Shown here: piece after piece, positions 29,468-37,807 of the stretch
How positions within the stretch are numbered: position 1 is the stretch's first letter
Layout of the letters: each line of letters starts with the position of its first letter
Assembly: GCF_009914755.1 (NCBI RefSeq)
Contig: NC_060934.1
DNA: 64,000 bases
Direction: 5' to 3' (one strand)
DNA from: the human T2T-CHM13v2.0 reference genome, Homo sapiens
Translations under genes and position numbers: made by a program
Notes under the pieces: model-generated
What the model saw: only the letters and a program-made list of their open reading frames with translations
What the model was told of the DNA's origin: nothing
Databases searched by the model: none

Positions 29468-29856
29468 TGTCAGGCCTCTGAGCCCAAGCTAAGCCATCAT
29501 ATCCCCTGTGACCTGCACTTATACATCCAGATGGCCTGAAGCAAGTGAAGAATCACAAAAGAAGTGAAAATAGCTGGTTCCTGCCTTAACTGATGACATT
29601 ACCTTGTGAAATTACTTCTCCTGGCTCAGAAGCTCCCCCACTAAGCACCTTATGACCCCCACCACTGCCCGCCAGAGAACAACCCCCTTTGACTGTAATT
29701 TTCCATTACCTACCCAAATCCTATAAAACGGCCCCACCCCATCTCCCTTTGCTGACTCTCTTTTCGGACTCAGCCTGCCTGCACCCAACTGATTAAAAAG
29801 CTTTATTGCTCACACAAAGCCTGTTTGGAAGTTTCTTTACACGGACATGTGTGACA
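29468..29856 (+). promoter_or_regulatory. LTR7-family 5' LTR (TATA 29722-29728, polyA signal ATTAAA 29792-29797)
   Basis: TGTCAGGCCTCTGAGCCCAAG...TGACA termini. Confidence 0.95.
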
Positions 29857-29858
29857 TT

Positions 29859-29876
29859 TGGTGCCGTGACTCGGAT
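29859..29876 (+). other. Primer binding site, tRNA-His
   Basis: TGGTGCCGTGACTCGGAT, 18/18 complement of the tRNA-His 3' end. Confidence 0.96.
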
Positions 29877-30000
29877 CGGGGGACCTCCCTTGGGAGATCA
29901 ATCCCCTGTTCTCCTGCTCTTTGCTCCATGAGAAAGATCCACCTATGACCTCGGGTCCTCAGACCAACCAGCCCAAAGAACATCTCACCAATTTTAAATT

Positions 30001-30008
30001 GGGTAAGT
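30001..30008 (+). promoter_or_regulatory. HERV-H major splice donor
   Basis: GG|GTAAGT ~145 nt downstream of the 5' LTR, the known HERV-H donor position. Confidence 0.8.
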
Positions 30009-30459
30009 GGCCTCTTTTTACTCTCTTCTCCAACCTCTCTCACTATCCCTCAGCTTATTTCTCCTTTCAATTTCTGCACCACCCTTCAATCTCTCCGTTC
30101 TTTTAATTTCAATTCCTTTCCTTTTCTGGTAGAGACAGAGGAGACGCGTTTTATCCATGAACCAAAACTCTGGCATTGGTCACAGACTTGGGAGGACAGT
30201 CTTCCCTTGGTGTTTAATCACTGTGGGGACGCCTGCTTGATTATTCACCCACATTTCAGAGATGTCTGATCACCATGGGGACAGCCGCCTTGATCCTTCA
30301 CCCTTAGAGGCAAGTACCACTTTCCTGGGGGCAAGCACCCCCCACCCCTTCTCTCCACCCTGTCTTTTCTCTGGGCTTGACTCCTTCACTATAGGCAACC
30401 TTCCACCCTCCGTTCCTCCTTCTCCCTTAGCCTATGTTCTCAAGAACTTAAAACCTCTT

Positions 30460-31630
30460 CAACTCACACCTGAACTAAAACCTAAATGCCTTATTTTCTT
30501 CTGCAATACCACTTGACCCCAATACAAACTCAACAATGGTTCCAAATAGCCCAAAAACGGCACTTTTGATTTCTCCATCCTACAAGATCTAGGTAATTCT
30601 TGTTGTAAAATGGACAAATGGTCTGAGGTGCCTGACGTCCAGGCATTCTTTTACATGTTGGTCCCTCCCCAGTCTCTGTTCCCATGCAACTCGTCCCAAA
30701 TCTTCCTTCTTTCCCTCCTGCCTGTCCCCTCAGTCCCAACCTCAAGCATCGCTGAGTCTTCTCAATCTTCCTTTTCTACTGACTCATCTGACCTCTCCCC
30801 TCCTCCCCAGACTGCTCCTCAGGTCACTCCCCACCAGGCTGAATCAGGCTCTAATTCTATCTCAGCCTCTGCTCCCCCACCCTATAATCCTTCTATCACC
30901 TCCCCTCCTCACACCTGGTCTGGCTGACAGTTTTGTTCCACAACTAGCCCTCCCCAACCTGCCCAACAATTTCCTCTGAAAGAGGTGGCTGGAGCTAAAG
31001 GCATAGTCAAGGTTAATGCTCCTTTTTCTTTATCCGACCTCTCCCAAATCAGTTAGTGTTTAAGCTATTTTTCATTAAATATAAAAACCCAGTCCAGTTC
31101 ATGGCTCGTTTGGCAGCAACCCTGAGATGCTTTACAGCCCTAGACCCTGAAAGATCAGAAGGCTTAGTCTCAATATGTATTTTATTACCCAATCCGCTCC
31201 TGACATTAAATAAAGCTCCAAAAATTAAATTCCAGCCCTCAAATCCCAGAACAGGATTTAATTAACCTCGCCTTCAAGGTGTACAATAATAGAGAAGAGT
31301 TGCAATTACTTGCCTGCACTGTGAGACAAAACCCCAGCCACATCTCTGGCACACAAGAACTTCAAAATGCCTAAGCCACAATGGTCAGGCTTTCCTTCAG
31401 GACTTCCTCCCCCAGGATCTTATTTCAAGTGCCAGAAATCTGGCCACTAGGTCAACGAATGCCCACAGCCTGGGATTCCTCCTAAGCCATGTCCCATCTG
31501 TGTGGGACCCCACTGGAAATCGGACTGTCCAACTCGCCCAGCAGCCACTACCAGAGCCCCTGGAACTCTGGCCCAAGGCTCTGTGACTGACTCCTTCCCA
31601 GATCTTCTCGGCTTAGCGGCTGAAGACTGA
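30460..31630 (+). pseudogene. gag: HERV-H gag remnant
   Basis: proline-rich PPPY (ORF 30610-30927); nucleocapsid knuckles YFKCQKSGH*VNEC and CPICVGPHWKSDC at ~31421-31528; stops and frameshifts. Confidence 0.85.
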
Positions 31631-31669
31631 CACTGCCCGATCGACTCGGAAGCCTCCTGGACCATCACA

Positions 31670-33855
31670 GATGCTTTAGGTAACTCTTATATTGGAGAGT
31701 AAGTCCATCCCCTTTTTAATCAATATGGAGGCTACCCACTCCACATTACCTTCTTTTCAAGGGCCTGTTTCCTTTGCCTCCATAACTGTTGTGGGTATTG
31801 ACAGCCAGGCTTCTAAACCTCTTAAAACTCCCCAACTCTAGTGCCAACTTGGACAATATTCTTTTATGCACTCCTTTTTAGTTATCCCCACCTGCCCAGT
31901 TCTCTTATTAGGCTGAGACATTTTAACTAAATTATCTGCTCCCCTGACTATTCCTGGGCTACAGCCACTCCTCATTGCCACCCTTTTCCCCAGTTCAAAG
32001 CCTCCTTTGCATCCTCTCCTTGTACCTCCCTACCTTAATCCACAGGTATGGGACATCTCTACTCCCTCCCTGGCAACCAATCACACGCCCATTACTATCC
32101 CATTAAAACCTAATCACCCTTACCCCGCTCAACACCAATATCCCATCCCACAGCAGGCTTTAAAAGGATTAAAGCCTGTTATCACTCGCCTGTTACAGCA
32201 TGGCCTTTTAAAGCCTATAAATTCTTACAATTATCCCATTTTACCTGTCCAAAAACCAGACAAGTCTTACAGGTTATTTCAGGATCTGCGCCTTATCAAC
32301 AAAATTGTTTTGCCTGTCCACCCTGTGGTGCCCAACCTGTACACTCTTTTGTCCTCAATACCTTCCTCCACAACTCACTATTCCATTCTTGATCTTAAAG
32401 ATGCTTTTTTCACTATTCCCCTGCACCCCTCATCCCAGCCTCTCTGTGCTTTCACTTGGACTGACCCTGAAACCCATTAGCCTCAGCAACTTACCTGGGC
32501 TGTACGGCTGCAAGGCTTCACAGACAGCCCCCATTACTTCAGTCAAGCCCAAATTTCTTCCTCATCCATTACCTATCTCAGCATAATTCTTCATGAAAAC
32601 ACACGTGCTCTCCCTGCTGATCATGTCCAGCTAATCTCCCAAACCCCAACCCCTTCTACAAAACAACTCCTTTCATTCCTGGGCATGGTTAAATACTTTT
32701 GCCTTTAAATATCTGGTTTTACCATGCTAACAAACCATTATATAAACTCACACACACACACAAAAACCTAACTGACCCCATAGATCCTAAATCCTTTCCC
32801 CGCTCCACTTTCCATTCCTTGAAAAACAGCCCTAAAAGCTGCTCCCACACTAGCTCTCCCTAACCCATCCCAACCCTTTTTTCATTACACACAGCCAAAG
32901 TGCAGGTCTGTGCAGCTGGAATTCTTACACAGGAGCCAGGACCGCGCCCTGTAGCCTTTCCGTCCAAACAACTTAACCTTACTGTTTTAGCATAGCTCTC
33001 ATGTCTGCGTGCGGTGGCTGCCACTGCTTTAATACTTTCAGAGGCCCTCAAAATCACAAGCTATGCTCCACTCACTCTCTACAGTTCTCATGACTTCCAA
33101 AATCTATTTTCTTCCTCATACCTGATGCATATACTTTCTTCCCCCCTCCACTACCTCTCAGCAAGCCGAACTCATTGCCTTAGTTCAGGACCTCACTCTT
33201 GCAAAGGGACTGCAAGCCAATATTTATACTGACTCTAAATATGCCTTCCATATCCTACACCACCATGCTGTTATATGGGCTGAAAGAGGTTTTCTCCTTA
33301 CTAAAGGGTCCTCCATCATTAATGCCTCTTTAATAAGAAGTCTTCTCAATGCCACTTTACTTCCAAAGGAAGCTGGGGTCATTCACTGCAATGGCCATGA
33401 AAAGGCATCAGATCCCTTTGCTCAGGACAACACTTATGCTGATAAGGTAGCTAAAGAAGCAGCTGGTGTCCCAACTTCTGTCCCTCATGGCCAGTTTTTC
33501 TCCTTCTCATTGTCACTCCCACTTACTCTCCCACTGAAACTTCCACCTATCAATCTCTTCCCACACAAGGCAAATGGTTCTTGGACCAAGGAAAATATCT
33601 CCTTCCAGCCTCACAGGCCCATTCTATTCTGTCATCATTTTATAACCTCTTCCATGTAAGTTACACACCTCTAGCCCACCTCTTAAAACCTCTCTTTTCC
33701 TTTCCGTCGTAAAAATCTATCCTGAAAAAATCACTTCTCAGTGTTCCATCTACTATTCTACTGCTCCTCAGGAATTTCTCAGGTCCCCTCCCTTCCCTAC
33801 ACATCAAGCTCAGGGATTTGCCCCTGCCCAGGACTGGCAAATTAACTTTACTCAC
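31670..33855 (+). pseudogene. pol: HERV-H pro-pol remnant (protease, RT, RNase H, N-terminal integrase)
   Basis: ORF 32007-32480 has RT motifs PILPVQKPDKSYRLFQDLR and LDLKDAFF; no YxDD seen downstream; RNase H NIYTDSKYAF at ~33219-33248. Confidence 0.93.
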
Positions 33856-34037
33856 AGAGAACAACCCCCTTTGACTGTAATTTTCCATTACCTACCCAAA
33901 TCCTATAAAACGGCCCCACCACTATCTCCCTTCGCTGACTCTTTTTGGACTCAGCCTGCCTGCACCTAGGTGATTAAAAAGCTTTATTGCTCACATGAAA
34001 CCTGTTTGGTGGTTTCTTTACACAGACACGCATGACA
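33855..34037 (+). mobile_element. Truncated 3' LTR7 of provirus A
   Basis: matches 29673-29856; shares gtttctttacac with the 5' LTR. Confidence 0.93.
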
Positions 34038-35369
34038 GTTATACTAATGTATCTCGAATTTTCATCCAGCCTGAAAACTTCTACCTTTTATTTGGAGGGC
34101 CTATCAGAATTAATAAAATTAACAATATGCTTGAGCTTTGGCTTGCCACCTAAATGATTGTTTTCCATTTACCTTATGTTTTCTTTGATCCTATATTTCC
34201 TCTTTATCAGTCTCCATTTGGAAAAATGAATATTTTTTATTTCATTTTATTTTCATTTTTTTAGCTATTGTTGCGCTGAATTTTATTTCTAAATGTTATA
34301 AACACCACAGTGCTTTTTACACATATTTTTTAAGTTGAACAGGTAGACCTCTGAGCCCAAGCCTGCATGTGTACATCCAGTTGGCCTGAAGAAATTGGAG
34401 AATCACAAAAGAAGTGAAAATGGCCGGTTCCTGCCTTAACTGATGACATTACCTTGTGAAATTCCTTCTCCTGGCTCAGAAGTTCCCTCTACTGAACACC
34501 TTGTGACCCCCACCCCTGCCTGCAAGAGAAAAACCCCTTTTGGCTGTAATTTTCCACTACCCACCCAAATCCTATAAAACTGCCCCACCCTATCTCCCTT
34601 TGCTGACTCTCTGTTTGGACTCAGCCCACCTGCTCCCAGGTAATTAAAAAGCTTTATTGCTCACACAAAGCCTGTTGGTGGTCTCTTCACATGGACGTGC
34701 ATGACAAAATCACTTCTCAGTGTTCCATCTGCTATCCTCAAGGATTTCTCAGGCTCCCTCCTTTCCCTACACATCAAACTCAAAGATTTGCCCCTGCTCA
34801 AAACTGGCAAATTAACTTTACTCACATGCCCCAAATCAAAAACCTAAAATACCTCTTAGTCTAAAAAACCACTTTCACTAAATAAATAAAGGCCTTTCCC
34901 ACAGGGTCTGAGAAGGCCACTGTGGTCATTTCTTCCCTTCTGTCAGACATAATTCACTTTCTTACTTGGCCCCAACTTCGTCCCAGACACCAGCCCTCTA
35001 GGCAACTATCTTCCCGTCCTTCAGCAGGCTAAACAAAAAATTCACCAGGCTGCTACTCTTCTCTTGCCTACTCCAGATTCCCAGCCATATAAAAACAAAC
35101 GCTAGCTAAACAATCAGTTCTTGTTACAAATCTAACCTCTCAAACTCTACAACCTCGATAGACCAGATCCTACCTAGTCATCTATAATACTCCAATTGCC
35201 TTCTGCCTACAGGACCTTCCCCATTGATTCACGGTTCCAAAATACAACTGTGTCCATCGGACAGCCAGCCTGTTCTCTCCTCTTCCTCCTAAAAGTCACA
35301 AGTACTCTCCCCTACTTCCCTTAAACTCACTCACATTTCTAAAAAGCAATAATAACCGTTATAAGCCTA

Positions 35370-36156
35370 ATACATCCCTTCATTCTATTAGGTCTATTCA
35401 TCCTTACCCTACTTTTTGCAACAGGGCTTTATGCAGTCACCCCTACTACTGTGCCCCAAAATCTTGTCATCCCTACTATCTTCTTTCTAGTCACACTCCT
35501 ATTCACCATTCTCAACTGCTTGTAAATGCCCTGCTCTTGTTTACACTGCCGGTTTACACTTTTCCTCCAAACCATCATAACTAATATCTCCTGGTTTTAC
35601 CTCAAACTGCCACCCTTAGGTCTCTCTTAAAATAAATAAAAAATCTTCAGTAACAAAATACACTCCAATACTTTCAACCTAATAAAGTCCTATTCTTTTG
35701 TACTTCTTCTCATTCTCGTTCTTATGCCACCCTCTACCTCTCCCCAGCTATCTCCACCACACTATCAATCTCACTCACTCTCTCCTAGCTGTTTCTAATC
35801 CTTCTTTACCAAACAATTGCTGGCTTTACATTTCTCTTTCCTCCAAAATCGCCAAAGTCTCAACTAACTCACTACAAAACAAACAAACAAAAAAACCCTC
35901 TATATTTTTAATTAAAAAATATTTTTACCTAAACCAACCTAACCTAATATATGATAACATAAAAAAACTCAAAAATAAAGACCCAAAACTCGCCAACCAA
36001 ACAAATAATCACACTATACCCCCTTAAACACTCTCTAATTAAATGTCCTGGGTCCCCCCAATTCTTAGTCCTTTAATACCTGTTTTTCTCCTACTCTTAT
36101 TCAAACCTTGTGTCTTCCGTTTAGTATCTCAATTCATACCAGGCCATCACCAATCA

Positions 36157-36189
<33 letters not shown>

Positions 36190-36300
36190 GGAGTCTCACT
36201 CTGCCGCCCAGGCTGGAGGGCAGTGGCATGAGCCAATCATTCTATACAACAAATGCTCCCTCTAACAACCCCACAATATCACCCCTTACTCCAAAATCTT
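35370..36300 (+). pseudogene. env: HERV-H env remnant (TM region)
   Basis: ctccaaaatcgc (LQNR, immunosuppressive domain start) and FYLNQPNLIYDNIKKLK in ORF 35698-36027. Confidence 0.75.
36159..36232 (-). mobile_element. Severely 5'-truncated Alu in env remnant
   Basis: poly-T plus ~47 nt of Alu 3' end; TSD CCAATCATT at 36150-36158 and 36233-36241. Confidence 0.9.
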
Positions 36301-36699
36301 TCTTCAGTTTAATCTCTCCCACTCTAGGTTCCCACACCGCTCCTAATCCCCTTCAAAACTGCCCTAAGAAACATCACCCATTATCTCTCAATACCACCCC
36401 CAAAAATTTTTGCCGCTGCAACACTTCACCACTATTTTGTTTTGTTTTTCTTATTAATATAAAAAGACAGAAGAGTTAATTTTCATATTAAGAGAAAAAA
36501 CCTAGGGAAGTTATACCTTGTGCTTAAATATTTGTCTTTTATGGTCCTCTTTGATTCTTTTGTAGATCTAAGTTTCCAATGGGTTAGATTTTCTTTCTGT
36601 AAAATACTGCTATTTATTATTTTTGGCAATGTATTATTGCTAGTGAACAATTTACTCAGCTTTTGTTTTGAAAAGTTTTTTTGACGGTGTTCGTCAGAT

Positions 36700-36965
36700 G
36701 ACTAGTTAATTTGTGGTTACAAAGACCCAGCCCCCTTGACACAATTTTAGAAAACATTTAATTGCTGTTTCTCCTCCAGATATCCCTTGGGCTTATGGGT
36801 ATAGGAAGATCTGCCTTCTGCCTATGTCATATTTACCTCTTCTTCCCCCTTATGCTATTTCCATTGCTCTTGTACAGTTTTTCGATCCCAAGGATACTGT
36901 GCAATAACTTTCTGCACTCAAATCCCTAACTCAGCTTCTGTTGCCTAAGGAATCCAACTTAAGAT
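36700..36965 (+). mobile_element. LTR16-like ERVL LTR fragment
   Basis: caataactttctgcactcaaatcc...ctcagcttctg...ggaatccaacttaagata 3' end. Confidence 0.55.
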
Positions 36966-37193
36966 AATGAGTTTAAAAGAATGCCAGTGCATATGTAGAT
37001 TTAGTATTCAAATATAGTACTTTCACAGATTCATACAAAAATCATAAACAGCCACAAACACTCACAAGTATTTATATTTGTATATTTATATGTGTATGTA
37101 TGTGTACTTTTGCCTGCCAAAGATTTTTAAATTCTCATACATTTTTGATTGACATCATGCTTAATTCCAATAAACCTTATCAGAGTAAACGGG

Positions 37194-37807
37194 TGTAATC
37201 TGAAATACCAACATAAACACTCCTTTATCAACTAAGACAGACCCAAAGGTTAAGGAAACAAGGGTACCAACAGGTCCAAGGTTCAGAGCCTGGCTGGCCT
37301 GGCAAATCTCTAAATTCTTATGGCTAAACTCCCTAACAATAGGAGCTATCAGCTCTGATTTACAACACAGTCACTACAACTCTGATGGGACAAAGGACCA
37401 GCCTTACAAAAATTCGCTTCAGATAAGCTACTGCAGACCTTAAGCCAGTTTCAACCAGCTTATATGGGCTACACAGTCTTTGTATCCTATAGTTTCCCTT
37501 TTGTCCTACAGTCAAATTCCACTTCATTTTAATGCTGAGACCCTGCCTTGAAATGAACATGAAATGTATGTTACATACATGTCTACCCACCATGCATGGA
37601 CTCAGCTCCCATCATAAATATGCATAGCTTTTGTCCCAAACCTGCTGAATGTGTGTGATACCAACTTTGTGAGGCATAAAACCTAACCTGTCTTTCCCCT
37701 CTTCAAAGAGAGAGGTGGAGACTTTCTCTTTCCAGCCTGCAAACCAGTATCACCAGAAAAGCTCTCCTTTCTACTATTTAGCCATTCTGGTGGTCCTTCA
37801 GGTGACA
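37194..37807 (+). mobile_element. MER39-like ERV1 solo LTR
   Basis: TG...CA termini; ggttaaggaaacaa...ggcaaatctctaaattc; aagctctcctttctactatttagccat. Confidence 0.7.

What the first reader, a model, noticed from the sequence alone, without database searches (positions are those of the whole stretch)
34343..36470. Circularly permuted HERV-H: possible fossil of an autointegration circle
Seen: the order is LTR, then mid-integrase, then env remnant, then PPT. The LTR ends exactly at ...CATGACA (34706) and runs straight into AAATCACTTC (equal to 33728 of provirus A), with no PBS, gag or RT. The element stops at the PPT (ttattaatataaaaagacag), where an LTR should start, and the LTR's first bases are slightly damaged. 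Joining the two ends would restore the normal PPT-U3 junction. Possible TSD AACAG (34338-34342) / AAGAG (36471-36475). Known: retroviral integrase can attack its own DNA, joining the terminal CA to an internal site and making deletion circles. Inference: such a circle opened at the PPT/U3 boundary and was captured in the germ line. The alternative needs two independent deletions, each landing on an LTR boundary.
Basis: partly seen in the sequence, partly recalled or inferred. Interest (0 to 1): 0.82.

Follow-up and report, generated by a model that had tools for sequence, protein, structure and literature searches.

The report
Circularly permuted, LTR-first HERV-H fragment
A broken human endogenous retrovirus copy is arranged as if a small circle of viral DNA had been cut open next to its LTR and pasted into the genome, and at least eight other copies of the same virus family end at exactly that cut point.

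Summary
Element B (window 34342-36469) is an HERV-H LTR whose processed CA end (34706) runs straight into integrase-coding sequence, then an env remnant, and it stops in the polypurine tract (PPT) with no 3' LTR.

- The join lies in the N-terminal part of integrase, about 30 codons before the catalytic core, not mid-integrase.
- The first 7 LTR bases are scrambled.
- The proposed target-site duplication (TSD) is only 4 of 5 and partly overlaps the PPT.
- Neighbouring provirus A is a separate insertion of another lineage.

New evidence:
- The normal PPT-U3 junction reads GACA-GGAA-TGTC, close to the predicted LTR-LTR circle junction GACA-TTAA-TGTC.
- Eight other HERV-H proviruses have a normal 5' part, end at ...AAGACA and lack a 3' LTR. 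Each has a perfect 5-bp TSD directly after that end. A ninth ends at GGAA.
- So the PPT/U3 boundary is a recurrent end, apparently made at integration. B ends at the same base.
- B's interior carries heavy G-to-A hypermutation that rises toward the PPT. This marks it as an edited reverse-transcription product.

Best reading (about 45%): an autointegration-type deletion circle was re-opened at this pseudo-junction and integrated. Orthologous primate loci could not be examined.

The parts
29468..34037 (+). Provirus A (context, not part of B). It has a 5' LTR at 29468-29856, then TT plus a PBS, then gag-pol up to 33856. The interior is joined directly to the 3' half of its own 3' LTR (33857-34037). 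Flanking repeats are GTTAC (29463-67) and GTTAT (34038-42).
   Evidence: RVT_1 and RNase_H Pfam matches. A's two LTRs share variants absent from B and three other LTRs.
34038..34336 (.). Spacer between A and B. It is AT-rich and single-copy in the genome.
   Evidence: only a self-match plus one 42-nt hit elsewhere.
34337..34341 (+). Candidate left target-site duplication, GAACA.
   Evidence: It matches GAAGA at 36470-74 in 4 of 5 positions. The register depends on how the LTR start is parsed.
34342..34706 (+). B's single LTR (U3-R-U5). The start is damaged (GGT-AGACC where TGTCAGGCC is expected). It lacks a 23-bp block, as do the LTRs of L002, L003 and L005. It ends ...GCATGACA.
34706..34707 (+). 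Join of the processed U5 CA end to the integrase-coding region (CA|AAATCACTTC).
   Evidence: No other locus spans this join, with 40 of 2276 candidates scored.
34707..34955 (+). Remnant of the N-terminal part of integrase and the start of its core. At 34955/34956 it shows the 295-bp core deletion shared with L002 and L003.
34956..36158 (+). Rest of pol and the env remnant, G-to-A hypermutated. There is a weak TLV_coat match at 35761-35943.
36159..36232 (-). Later insertion: poly-T plus about 47 nt of an Alu 3' end. It is flanked by the 9-bp repeat CCAATCATT (36150-58 and 36233-41).
   Evidence: It is absent from the other copies.
36233..36469 (+). 3' end of the internal region and the PPT, ending ...ATAAAAAGACA.
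36470..36474 (+). Candidate right target-site duplication, GAAGA. Single-copy flank follows.

Best explanation
B descends from a circular, internally deleted molecule of HERV-H DNA made during one round of reverse transcription.

Proposed sequence of events:
1. The integrase-processed CA end of the right-hand LTR was joined to the virus's own DNA in the N-terminal integrase-coding region. This is autointegration in the same-strand sense. It gives a one-LTR 'deletion circle' holding LTR - rest of pol - env - PPT.
2. In HERV-H the PPT-U3 junction of any circle reads ...AAGACA-GGAA-TGTCAGG.... This is a near-copy of the palindromic LTR-LTR junction (GACA-TTAA-TGTC) that retroviral integrases are known to cut.
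3. The circle was re-opened there. That left a normal U3 end on one side and ...AAGACA on the other.
4. It was then inserted into the germ line, most likely by integrase itself.

What is shown: the anatomy, the CA join, the shared end point with eight TSD-flanked loci, and the hypermutation.

What is inferred: the circle, the cutting by integrase, and the order of events.
For: 1. **The join is at the processed CA.** B reads ...GCATGACA|AAATCAC. A 5' LTR reads ...GACA-TT-PBS and an integrated 3' LTR ends GACA|flank. Other copies read ...CAAGG|AAATCAC or ...CAAAA|AAATCAC at that internal site, so microhomology is 0-1 nt.
2. **Joining B's two ends restores the normal PPT-U3 junction** seen in 7 of 7 other copies, give or take a few bases.
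3. **LTR and interior are of one sub-lineage.** The LTR lacks the same 23 bp as L002, L003 and L005. The interior shares a 295-bp integrase deletion with L002 and L003.
4. **The end point recurs.**
   - Among 461 exact copies of the 20-nt PPT word (control 1), pattern screens and fetched flanks gave 7 proviruses with a normal 5' LTR and interior that end ...AAGACA and lack a 3' LTR. Six show a recognisable PBS next to the LTR; in the seventh (C4:159449086) the PBS was not seen in the printed output, though its interior aligns from the first base after the LTR.
   - Each has a perfect 5-bp duplication of the 5 bases before the 5' LTR directly after that end: GTGTT, GTCAG, GTTGC, GTAAT, CTGAT, TGGAC, ATAGC.
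   - An eighth has one PPT mismatch (GTAAC). A ninth ends GACAGGAA|CTTAC.
   - One lies inside a single Alu that reads through once the element and one repeat copy are removed, so nothing of the host was lost.
5. **The pseudo-junction.** GACA-GGAA-TGTC against GACA-TT + AA-TGTC is 10 of 12 identical.
6. **Literature.**
   - HIV-1 integrase cuts the LTR-LTR palindrome after CA on both strands (PMC1905944; abstract and one results section read).
   - 2-LTR circles are re-linearised and integrated (PMC4372172; abstract only).
   - Autointegration deletion circles consist of one LTR contiguous with a truncated part of the element (PMC7197481; passages).
7. **B is a hypermutated reverse-transcription product.**
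   - 36 of 81 private changes are G>A, against 32 of 399 in the compared copies (Fisher p 4.5e-14).
   - The rate per G site rises toward the PPT: 3/31, 9/59, 23/54. The LTR shows 4/56.
Against: - B's left end is not the clean TGTCAGG seen in 7 of the 9 other loci (the other two differ from it at one base). 3 of its first 7 bases are changed or missing.
- B's flanking repeat is 4 of 5, not 5 of 5.
- The eight or nine comparison loci all have an ordinary 5' LTR and gag-pol, and most a recognisable PBS. They prove the end point, not a circle. They could come from linear DNA.
- In HIV-1 the four central bases of the palindrome mattered for cutting. Two of the four differ here.
- No fossil of a true LTR-LTR junction was found. 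16 hits all had 3 mismatches, and the one that looked like an LTR end was plain flank.
- No second LTR|internal element was found among the loci examined.
- No outgroup or orthologous locus could be examined, so a later chromosomal deletion of PBS-gag-pol is not excluded.
- Hypermutation fits any fresh integration, not only an aberrant one.
Confidence: 0.45

Rival explanations
1. B began as an ordinary member of the 3'-LTR-less class (5' LTR-PBS-gag-pol-env-...AAGACA, inserted with a TSD). It lost PBS to early integrase later, in the chromosome. This could be a plain deletion. It could also be a second HERV-H inserting into the integrase region, followed by LTR-LTR recombination with the 5' LTR.
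For: - The class exists and explains B's right end without any circle.
- One class member (C1:3.694 Mb) has a later 5' deletion from about LTR base 30 to internal base about 779.
- A nested insertion would naturally give CA|target.
Against: - A plain deletion must start exactly at the processed CA with 0-1 nt of microhomology.
- A nested element must be of the same LTR sub-lineage.
- By my own rough estimate, which no tool computed, either event in one of about ten class members is expected far less than once per genome.
Confidence: 0.25
2. The same one-LTR deleted circle arose from faulty reverse transcription, not integrase attack. Plus-strand strong-stop DNA landed on an internal site instead of the PBS. 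The circle then followed the same route into the genome.
For: - B is heavily G-to-A edited with a PPT-directed gradient.
- From memory, not checked here: APOBEC3G has been reported to disturb plus-strand transfer.
- The join has at most 1 nt of homology.
Against: Strong-stop DNA should carry U5 to its last base (CA+TT) and usually PBS bases. B stops at CA.
Confidence: 0.1
3. One reading: an autointegration circle broke at a nick at the PPT/U3 boundary and was captured by host end-joining, without integrase.
For: - B's first 7 LTR bases are scrambled.
- Its flanking repeat is imperfect.
- Both fit ragged end-joining.
Against: B's right end falls on the same base as in eight insertions with perfect 5-bp TSDs. 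End-joining has no reason to choose that base.
Confidence: 0.1
4. B is an ordinary two-LTR provirus that suffered two or three unrelated chromosomal deletions.
For: - Deletions are common in HERV-H.
- Provirus A next door has one, from integrase to mid 3' LTR.
- One locus (C19:30.96 Mb) lost nearly all of its 3' LTR but kept about 10 nt of the LTR end and the TSD.
Against: It needs the left cut exactly at CA, and the right cut on the very base used by eight TSD-flanked loci.
Confidence: 0.05
5. A and B are the two halves of one rearranged provirus. A's interior stops 129-134 bp after the point where B's begins.
For: They lie 305 bp apart, and their contents are complementary with a short overlap.
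Against: - A has its own flanking repeat, GTTAC/GTTAT.
- A's two LTRs share three variant blocks against B and three other LTRs.
- B's LTR lacks 23 bp that A's 5' LTR has.
- The overlapping stretch is only 83.6% alike, while A is 86-90% like unrelated copies there.
- B is hypermutated. A was not tested for hypermutation, so this comparison is open.
Confidence: 0.02

Closest known systems
Autointegration ('suicide') deletion circles of retroviruses and LTR retrotransposons, seen as unintegrated DNA
   Same: One LTR whose end is joined to an internal site of the same genome. The remaining part is colinear, and the PPT-U3 junction is intact in the circle. [quoted passage not shown]
   Different: Those are extrachromosomal dead ends in infected cells or particles. 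B is chromosomal, germ-line and fixed. It is linearised at one particular point.
Integrase cleavage of the palindromic LTR-LTR junction of 2-LTR circles, followed by integration (HIV-1, foamy virus)
   Same: A circle is re-opened at a CA...TG palindrome and becomes a substrate for integration (PMC1905944, PMC4372172).
   Different: Here the site would be the PPT-U3 junction, which only mimics the LTR-LTR junction (10 of 12 bases). The substrate would be a one-LTR circle. No enzyme was tested. In HIV-1, changing all four central bases abolished cutting.
Ordinary HERV-H provirus (LTR7-type LTRs, PBS matching tRNA-His by recall, 5-bp TSD)
   Same: The same LTR, pol, env and PPT sequences.
   Different: It has no PBS, gag, protease or RT and no 3' LTR. 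The LTR abuts integrase-coding sequence.
3'-LTR-less HERV-H proviruses ending at ...AAGACA with perfect 5-bp TSDs. I found no description of it in four library searches.
   Same: The same right-hand end point to the base.
   Different: Those have a complete 5' LTR and gag-pol (six of the seven exact-word members also show a recognisable PBS), an LTR start of TGTCAGG or within one base of it, and 5-of-5 TSDs. B has none of these three.
APOBEC3-hypermutated endogenous retroviruses
   Same: A plus-strand G-to-A excess confined to one copy, rising toward the PPT and sparing the LTR. PMC2041998 and PMC3310730 were seen in the search listing and abstract starts only.
   Different: The dinucleotide context is mixed (GG 11, GA 14, GT 6, GC 5), so no single enzyme can be named.

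Membership tests
HERV-H | LTR homologous to other HERV-H LTRs, with TG...CA ends | tested here: met
   84.9-89.3% identity to the LTRs of L003 and L005, and 87.6% to A's 5' LTR. The CA end is intact. The TG end is damaged.
HERV-H | Internal pol-env-PPT colinear with other copies | tested here: met
   Colinear at 80-84% with 7 fetched loci and many others. rve and TLV_coat were identified in the homologous stretch of L005.
HERV-H | PBS next to the 5' LTR | tested here: not met
   The LTR is followed at once by integrase-coding sequence. Provirus A has the PBS.
Autointegration deletion circle (as source) | Processed CA end of the LTR joined to an internal site of the same genome, same orientation, little or no homology | tested here: met
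   CA|AAATCAC, 0-1 nt microhomology.
Autointegration deletion circle (as source) | LTR and interior come from one DNA molecule | tested here: inconclusive
   Same sub-lineage by two indel markers. The interior is hypermutated and the LTR is not. That is what an editing gradient predicts, but it would also fit two molecules.
Autointegration deletion circle (as source) | Joining the ends restores an intact PPT-U3 junction | tested here: met
   Right end ...AAGACA(G); left end from LTR base 1-8. The normal junction was seen in 7 of 7 copies. A few bases are lost or changed.
Autointegration deletion circle (as source) | The deletion predates chromosomal insertion (no orthologue with PBS-gag-pol) | not testable with these tools
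   No primate genomes are held. The flanks are single-copy in the human genome.
3'-LTR-less, TSD-flanked HERV-H class | Right end at ...AAGACA of the PPT | tested here: met
3'-LTR-less, TSD-flanked HERV-H class | Perfect 5-bp TSD directly after that end | tested here: inconclusive
   GAACA/GAAGA, 4 of 5, and dependent on register.
3'-LTR-less, TSD-flanked HERV-H class | Intact 5' LTR start and PBS-gag-pol | tested here: not met
Solo LTR or nested LTR insertion into an older provirus | The 5-bp target repeat of the nested element on both sides of the LTR | tested here: not met
   Upstream of the LTR is single-copy non-HERV DNA, not integrase sequence. This would fit only after LTR-LTR recombination, which erases the test.

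The most novel reading that the evidence does not exclude
HERV-H integrase could re-open circular viral DNA at the PPT-U3 junction, because that junction mimics the LTR-LTR palindrome. 'Dead-end' circles could then still enter the germ line. One-LTR circles would give the 3'-LTR-less, TSD-flanked proviruses: at least 7 of 461 exact-PPT copies, plus two variants. An autointegration deletion circle would give element B. B would then be the first recognised chromosomal fossil of retroviral autointegration.
Probability: 0.4. Interest if true: 0.85.

Novelty: new variant of a known kind. Interest (0 to 1): 0.72.

Why it matters
Circular forms of retroviral DNA, including autointegration products, are treated as dead ends. 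Evidence that they can re-enter the integration pathway comes mainly from cell-culture work with HIV-1 and foamy virus.

If B and the TSD-flanked 3'-LTR-less HERV-H copies derive from circles cut at a pseudo-junction, the human genome holds natural records, tens of millions of years old, of that pathway working in the germ line of primates.

It would also give a concrete rule: a PPT that ends in a mimic of the U5 end. That rule can be looked for in other endogenous retrovirus families.

There is a practical side too. Elements annotated as '3'-truncated' may be complete insertion products. This affects dating by LTR divergence and counts of solo-LTR formation.

Tried and rejected
1. **Repeat copies as stand-ins for the empty site.** The spacer (34038-34342) and the right flank (36471-37070) are single-copy in the genome, so this gave nothing.
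2. **A second copy of the LTR|integrase join.** Only the window itself spans it. Just 40 of 2276 candidates were scored, so this is a weak negative.
3. **Microhomology as the cause of the join.** An apparent TGA.A match came from A's own derived sequence. The other 5 copies give 0-1 nt.
4. **A and B as halves of one provirus.** Rejected on LTR variants, the 23-bp indel and A's own TSD.
5. **G at the first TSD base of the class.** This was an artefact of my patterns, which ended in ...GACAG. It dissolved once ...GACAH was searched. T at the second base (7 of 8, against 38 of 100 by my hand count) remains unexplained.
6. **Fossil LTR-LTR junction.** None was found: 16 hits, all with 3 mismatches, and 10 of them are PPT-U3 junctions themselves. 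The hit that looked like an LTR end is ordinary flank of a normal provirus.
7. **Shorter PPT core, to widen the census.** This was noise, with controls at or above the hits. 0 of 20 fetched candidates have HERV-H upstream.
8. **Pfam on B's own open pieces.** Only one sub-threshold TLV_coat match. Integrase was placed through copy L005 instead.
9. **Loci flagged by the screens that are not class members.**
   - LTR present but shifted by small indels, or of a variant type starting ...GAATAGGCCTC.
   - Alu inserted at the PPT with the LTR behind it: L016, L017.
   - A small local duplication and then the LTR: L013.
   - A diverged LTR: E30. Non-HERV DNA: E31.
   - A near-total 3' LTR deletion that keeps about 10 nt of the LTR end plus the TSD: E33.
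Full report
**Anatomy**

The window holds two HERV-H elements in the same orientation, 305 bp apart.

Provirus A (29468-34037):
- It has a 5' LTR (TGTCAGG...GTGTGACA), then TT and a PBS, then gag-pol with RVT_1 and RNase_H matches.
- Its interior stops at 33856 and is joined directly to the 3' half of its own 3' LTR (33857-34037).
- It is flanked by GTTAC and GTTAT.

Element B is the finding:
- An LTR runs from about 34342 to 34706 and ends ...GCATGACA.
- AAATCACTTC follows at once. This equals A 33728 and the same internal site in five other copies.
- From there B is colinear with the 3' third of other HERV-H copies, down to ...CTTATTAATATAAAAAGACAG at 36470.
- Single-copy DNA follows, and no LTR7-like sequence follows anywhere in the window.
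- In 7 of 7 other copies examined, the same 3' sequence continues with three purines (GAA, GGA or GAG) and then TGTCAGG of the 3' LTR.
- So the order LTR - pol remnant - env remnant - PPT is real, and it is a circular permutation of the normal 3' end.

**Corrections to the observation**

- *Position of the join.* It is not mid-integrase. A's RNase H match ends near 33464. In the better-preserved copy L005 the Pfam integrase core (rve, E 9e-18) starts about 30 codons after the join site. A's reading frame there shows the C-x2-C-like stretch and WQINFTH. The join is therefore in the N-terminal part of integrase.
- *LTR start.* The first seven LTR bases are not recognisable without a gap. The best parse is GGT-AGACC for TGTCAGGCC, starting at 34342.
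In the register suggested by the loci described below, the pair is GAACA (34337-41) and GAAGA (36470-74). That is 4 of 5 and carries little weight given 2-3 possible registers.
- *Later insertion.* B carries a 74-bp Alu fragment with a 9-bp TSD (36159-36232).

**A and B are separate insertions**

- A's two LTRs share three variant blocks against B and the LTRs of L002, L003 and L005.
- B's LTR lacks a 23-bp block that A's 5' LTR has. L002, L003 and L005 lack it too.
- The 129-134-bp stretch that A and B both carry is 83.6% alike, whereas A is 86-90% like unrelated copies there.
- B's interior shares a 295-bp deletion in the integrase core with L002 and L003. B's LTR and interior therefore point to the same sub-lineage, and that lineage is not A's.

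**The join**

- A 5' LTR reads GACA-TT-PBS. An integrated 3' LTR ends GACA|flank.
- B's LTR stops at the CA, the base that integrase exposes and joins to target DNA.
- Other copies read ...CAAGG or ...CAAAA just before AAATCAC. Homology between the two partners is therefore 0-1 nt.
- An apparent longer match came only from A's own derived sequence, and I dropped it.
- A 160-nt query across the join found no other locus that spans it. Only 40 of 2276 candidates were scored.

**The right end is a recurrent end point**

This is the main new result.

*The screens.*
- The 21-nt PPT word occurs 1108 times at up to 2 mismatches (control 51).
- Its first 20 nt occur 461 times exactly (control 1).
- I screened these copies with patterns that demand non-LTR bases after the PPT. 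I then fetched the flagged loci.

*Flagged loci that turned out ordinary.*
- LTR present but shifted or of a variant type.
- Alu inserted at the PPT with the LTR behind it (L016, L017).
- A small local duplication (L013).
- A diverged LTR (E30).
- Non-HERV DNA (E31).

*The class.* Eight loci have a normal 5' LTR start and a colinear interior, end at ...AAGACA (one reads AAGGCA), have no 3' LTR, and are followed directly by a perfect copy of the 5 bases that precede the 5' LTR:

| Locus | 5-bp repeat |
|---|---|
| C4:155.136 Mb | GTGTT |
| C9:118.970 Mb | GTCAG |
| C3:57.349 Mb | GTTGC |
| C4:159.449 Mb | GTAAT |
| C1:3.694 Mb | GTAAC |
| C16:53.641 Mb | CTGAT |
| C5:96.668 Mb | TGGAC |
| C23:112.498 Mb | ATAGC |

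- A recognisable PBS next to the 5' LTR was seen in six of the eight. The C1 locus has a later deletion from about LTR base 30 into the interior. At C4:159.449 Mb the PBS was not seen in the printed output, though the interior aligns from the first base after the LTR.
- A ninth locus (C7:147.424 Mb) ends four bases later, GACAGGAA|CTTAC, again with a 5-of-5 repeat.
- The C9 element sits inside one Alu. That Alu reads through once the element and one repeat copy are removed, so no host DNA was lost.
- No LTR was found at least 5 kb downstream in five loci, and about 1.5 kb downstream in the other four.
- A tenth locus (C19:30.96 Mb) is different. After AAGACA it keeps about 10 nt resembling the LTR end and then its TSD. 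This is an almost complete deletion of the 3' LTR.

*What this means.* Eight independent losses of exactly 'GGAA plus the whole LTR', each preserving the TSD, cannot be random chromosomal deletions. These elements were inserted without a 3' LTR, with ...GACA serving as the right-hand end.

**Why that end**

- The normal junction reads AAGACA-GGAA-TGTCAGG.
- The U5 end plus its two trimmed bases is GACA-TT.
- By analogy with other gammaretroviruses (recalled), the AA before TGTC are the two trimmed bases of the U3 end.
- A 2-LTR circle junction would therefore read GACA-TTAA-TGTC. The PPT-U3 junction matches it in 10 of 12 positions.
- HIV-1 integrase cuts its own LTR-LTR palindrome after CA on both strands, about as efficiently as it processes normal ends (PMC1905944; abstract and one results section read).
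- 2-LTR circles can be re-linearised and integrated (PMC4372172; abstract read).
- Cutting a one-LTR circle at the HERV-H pseudo-junction would give LTR-PBS-...-AAGACA with two processed ends. That is exactly the class.
- Cutting an autointegration deletion circle would give exactly B.
- Such deletion circles are described as one LTR contiguous with a truncated part of the element (PMC7197481; passages read).

Caveats:
- In HIV-1 the four central bases mattered, and two of the four differ here.
- The class could also arise from linear DNA.
- I found no fossil of a true LTR-LTR junction.

**Hypermutation**

- In a tree of the env region, B's terminal branch is 0.13 against a median of 0.06, and its base make-up differs from the rest.
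- Counting changes private to each copy: B has 36 G>A among 81, and the compared copies together have 32 among 399 (Fisher p 4.5e-14).
- Per G site the rate is 3/31 in the integrase part, 9/59 and 23/54 in the next two segments, and 1/7 in the G-poor last 237 nt.
- B's LTR shows 4/56, like other LTRs at 0-5.
- The contexts are GG 11, GA 14, GT 6, GC 5.
- This is the pattern expected for cytidine-deaminase editing of minus-strand DNA, with least editing just downstream of the PPT. That expectation is recalled knowledge. PMC2041998 and PMC3310730 were seen only as listing and abstract starts.
- It explains B's extra divergence without greater age. It marks B as the product of a restricted round of reverse transcription.
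- It does not distinguish a circle from a linear precursor.

**Weighing**

- With the class in hand, only one rare feature of B needs a special cause: the CA|integrase join.
- If the class comes from circles, a deletion circle taking the same route is a natural minor product.
- If B instead started as a class member, PBS-gag-pol must later have been removed with a cut exactly at CA. The alternative is a second HERV-H of the same sub-lineage inserting into integrase and then recombining with the 5' LTR.
- By my rough reckoning, which is an estimate and not a computation, both are much rarer than one per genome.
- Against the circle reading stand B's damaged LTR start, its imperfect repeat, and the lack of any outgroup.
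- I put the autointegration-circle reading at about 0.45. Later loss from a class-type provirus is about 0.25. Faulty plus-strand transfer making the same circle is 0.1. End-joining capture of a broken circle is 0.1. Unrelated deletions are 0.05.

**Novelty**

Four library searches returned no paper describing a germ-line autointegration product or TSD-flanked 3'-LTR-less HERV-H copies. The library lacks most subscription journals, so this is not proof of absence.

**What is open**

- Orthologous and empty sites in other primates, for B and for the nine loci, would settle most of this and could not be examined here.
- The census is a lower bound, limited mainly to copies with an exact PPT word.
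- T at the second TSD base in 7 of 8 class members is unexplained. The background is 38 of 100 ordinary LTR flanks by my hand count.

Noticed in passing
G000 C4:155136013(-), C9:118970106(+), C3:57349372(+), C4:159449086(-), C1:3693980(-), C16:53641362(+), C5:96667815(-), C23:112497779(+), C7:147423892(-); loci L012, L014, L015, L024, L025, L028, L029, L032, L034 and their extensions: Nine HERV-H proviruses have a normal 5' part and no 3' LTR. They end inside or at the PPT (eight at ...AAGACA, one at GACAGGAA). Each is followed directly by a perfect 5-bp copy of the bases before the 5' LTR. Seven of them lie among 461 exact copies of the PPT word.
   Followed up: yes
window 34707-36469: B's interior is G-to-A hypermutated: 36 of 81 private changes. 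The rate per G site rises toward the PPT (10%, 15%, 43%). B's LTR is not affected (4 of 56).
   Followed up: yes
window 29468-34037: Provirus A has a deletion from just after the first catalytic motif of integrase (33856) to the middle of its own 3' LTR. Its two LTRs are 91.7% alike over 180 nt. Its TSD is GTTAC/GTTAT.
   Followed up: partly
window 36150-36241: A severely 5'-truncated Alu (poly-T plus about 47 nt, minus strand) is inserted in B with the 9-bp TSD CCAATCATT. It is absent from all other copies compared.
   Followed up: yes
L016 (C5:98943772) and L017 (C11:70229646): In two other HERV-H proviruses a full Alu sits exactly between ...AAGACAG and the 3' LTR. The AT-rich PPT region looks like a favoured L1-endonuclease target.
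   Followed up: partly
L033 (C19:30961560-30961591, minus strand): This provirus has AAGACA followed by about 10 nt resembling the LTR end and then its TSD, GAGGG. The 3' LTR is almost wholly deleted but its tip is kept, unlike the class above.
   Followed up: partly
the nine class loci: The second base of the 5-bp TSD is T in 7 of the 8 loci that end at ...AAGACA (and also in the ninth locus, which ends at GACAGGAA), against 38 of 100 ordinary LTR flanks (hand count). The apparent excess of G at the first base was largely an artefact of my search patterns.
   Followed up: partly
several loci (e.g. C2:117565854, C3:58635082, C11:77487761): A group of HERV-H copies has the PPT followed by GAATAGGCCTC instead of GAATGTCAGGCCTC. 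Their LTR start lacks GTC.
   Followed up: no
window 34955/34956; L002 (C1:115.52 Mb), L003 (C5:163.87 Mb): B shares a 295-bp deletion inside the integrase core with two other copies (a fourth candidate, C5:44.04 Mb, was not examined). This suggests an integrase-defective sub-lineage that was mobilised in trans.
   Followed up: partly
window 29468-37798: Two independent HERV-H insertions lie within 305 bp of each other. They sit about 570 bp upstream of a RefSeq-annotated enhancer (37046-37798). This may reflect targeting of one open-chromatin site.
   Followed up: no
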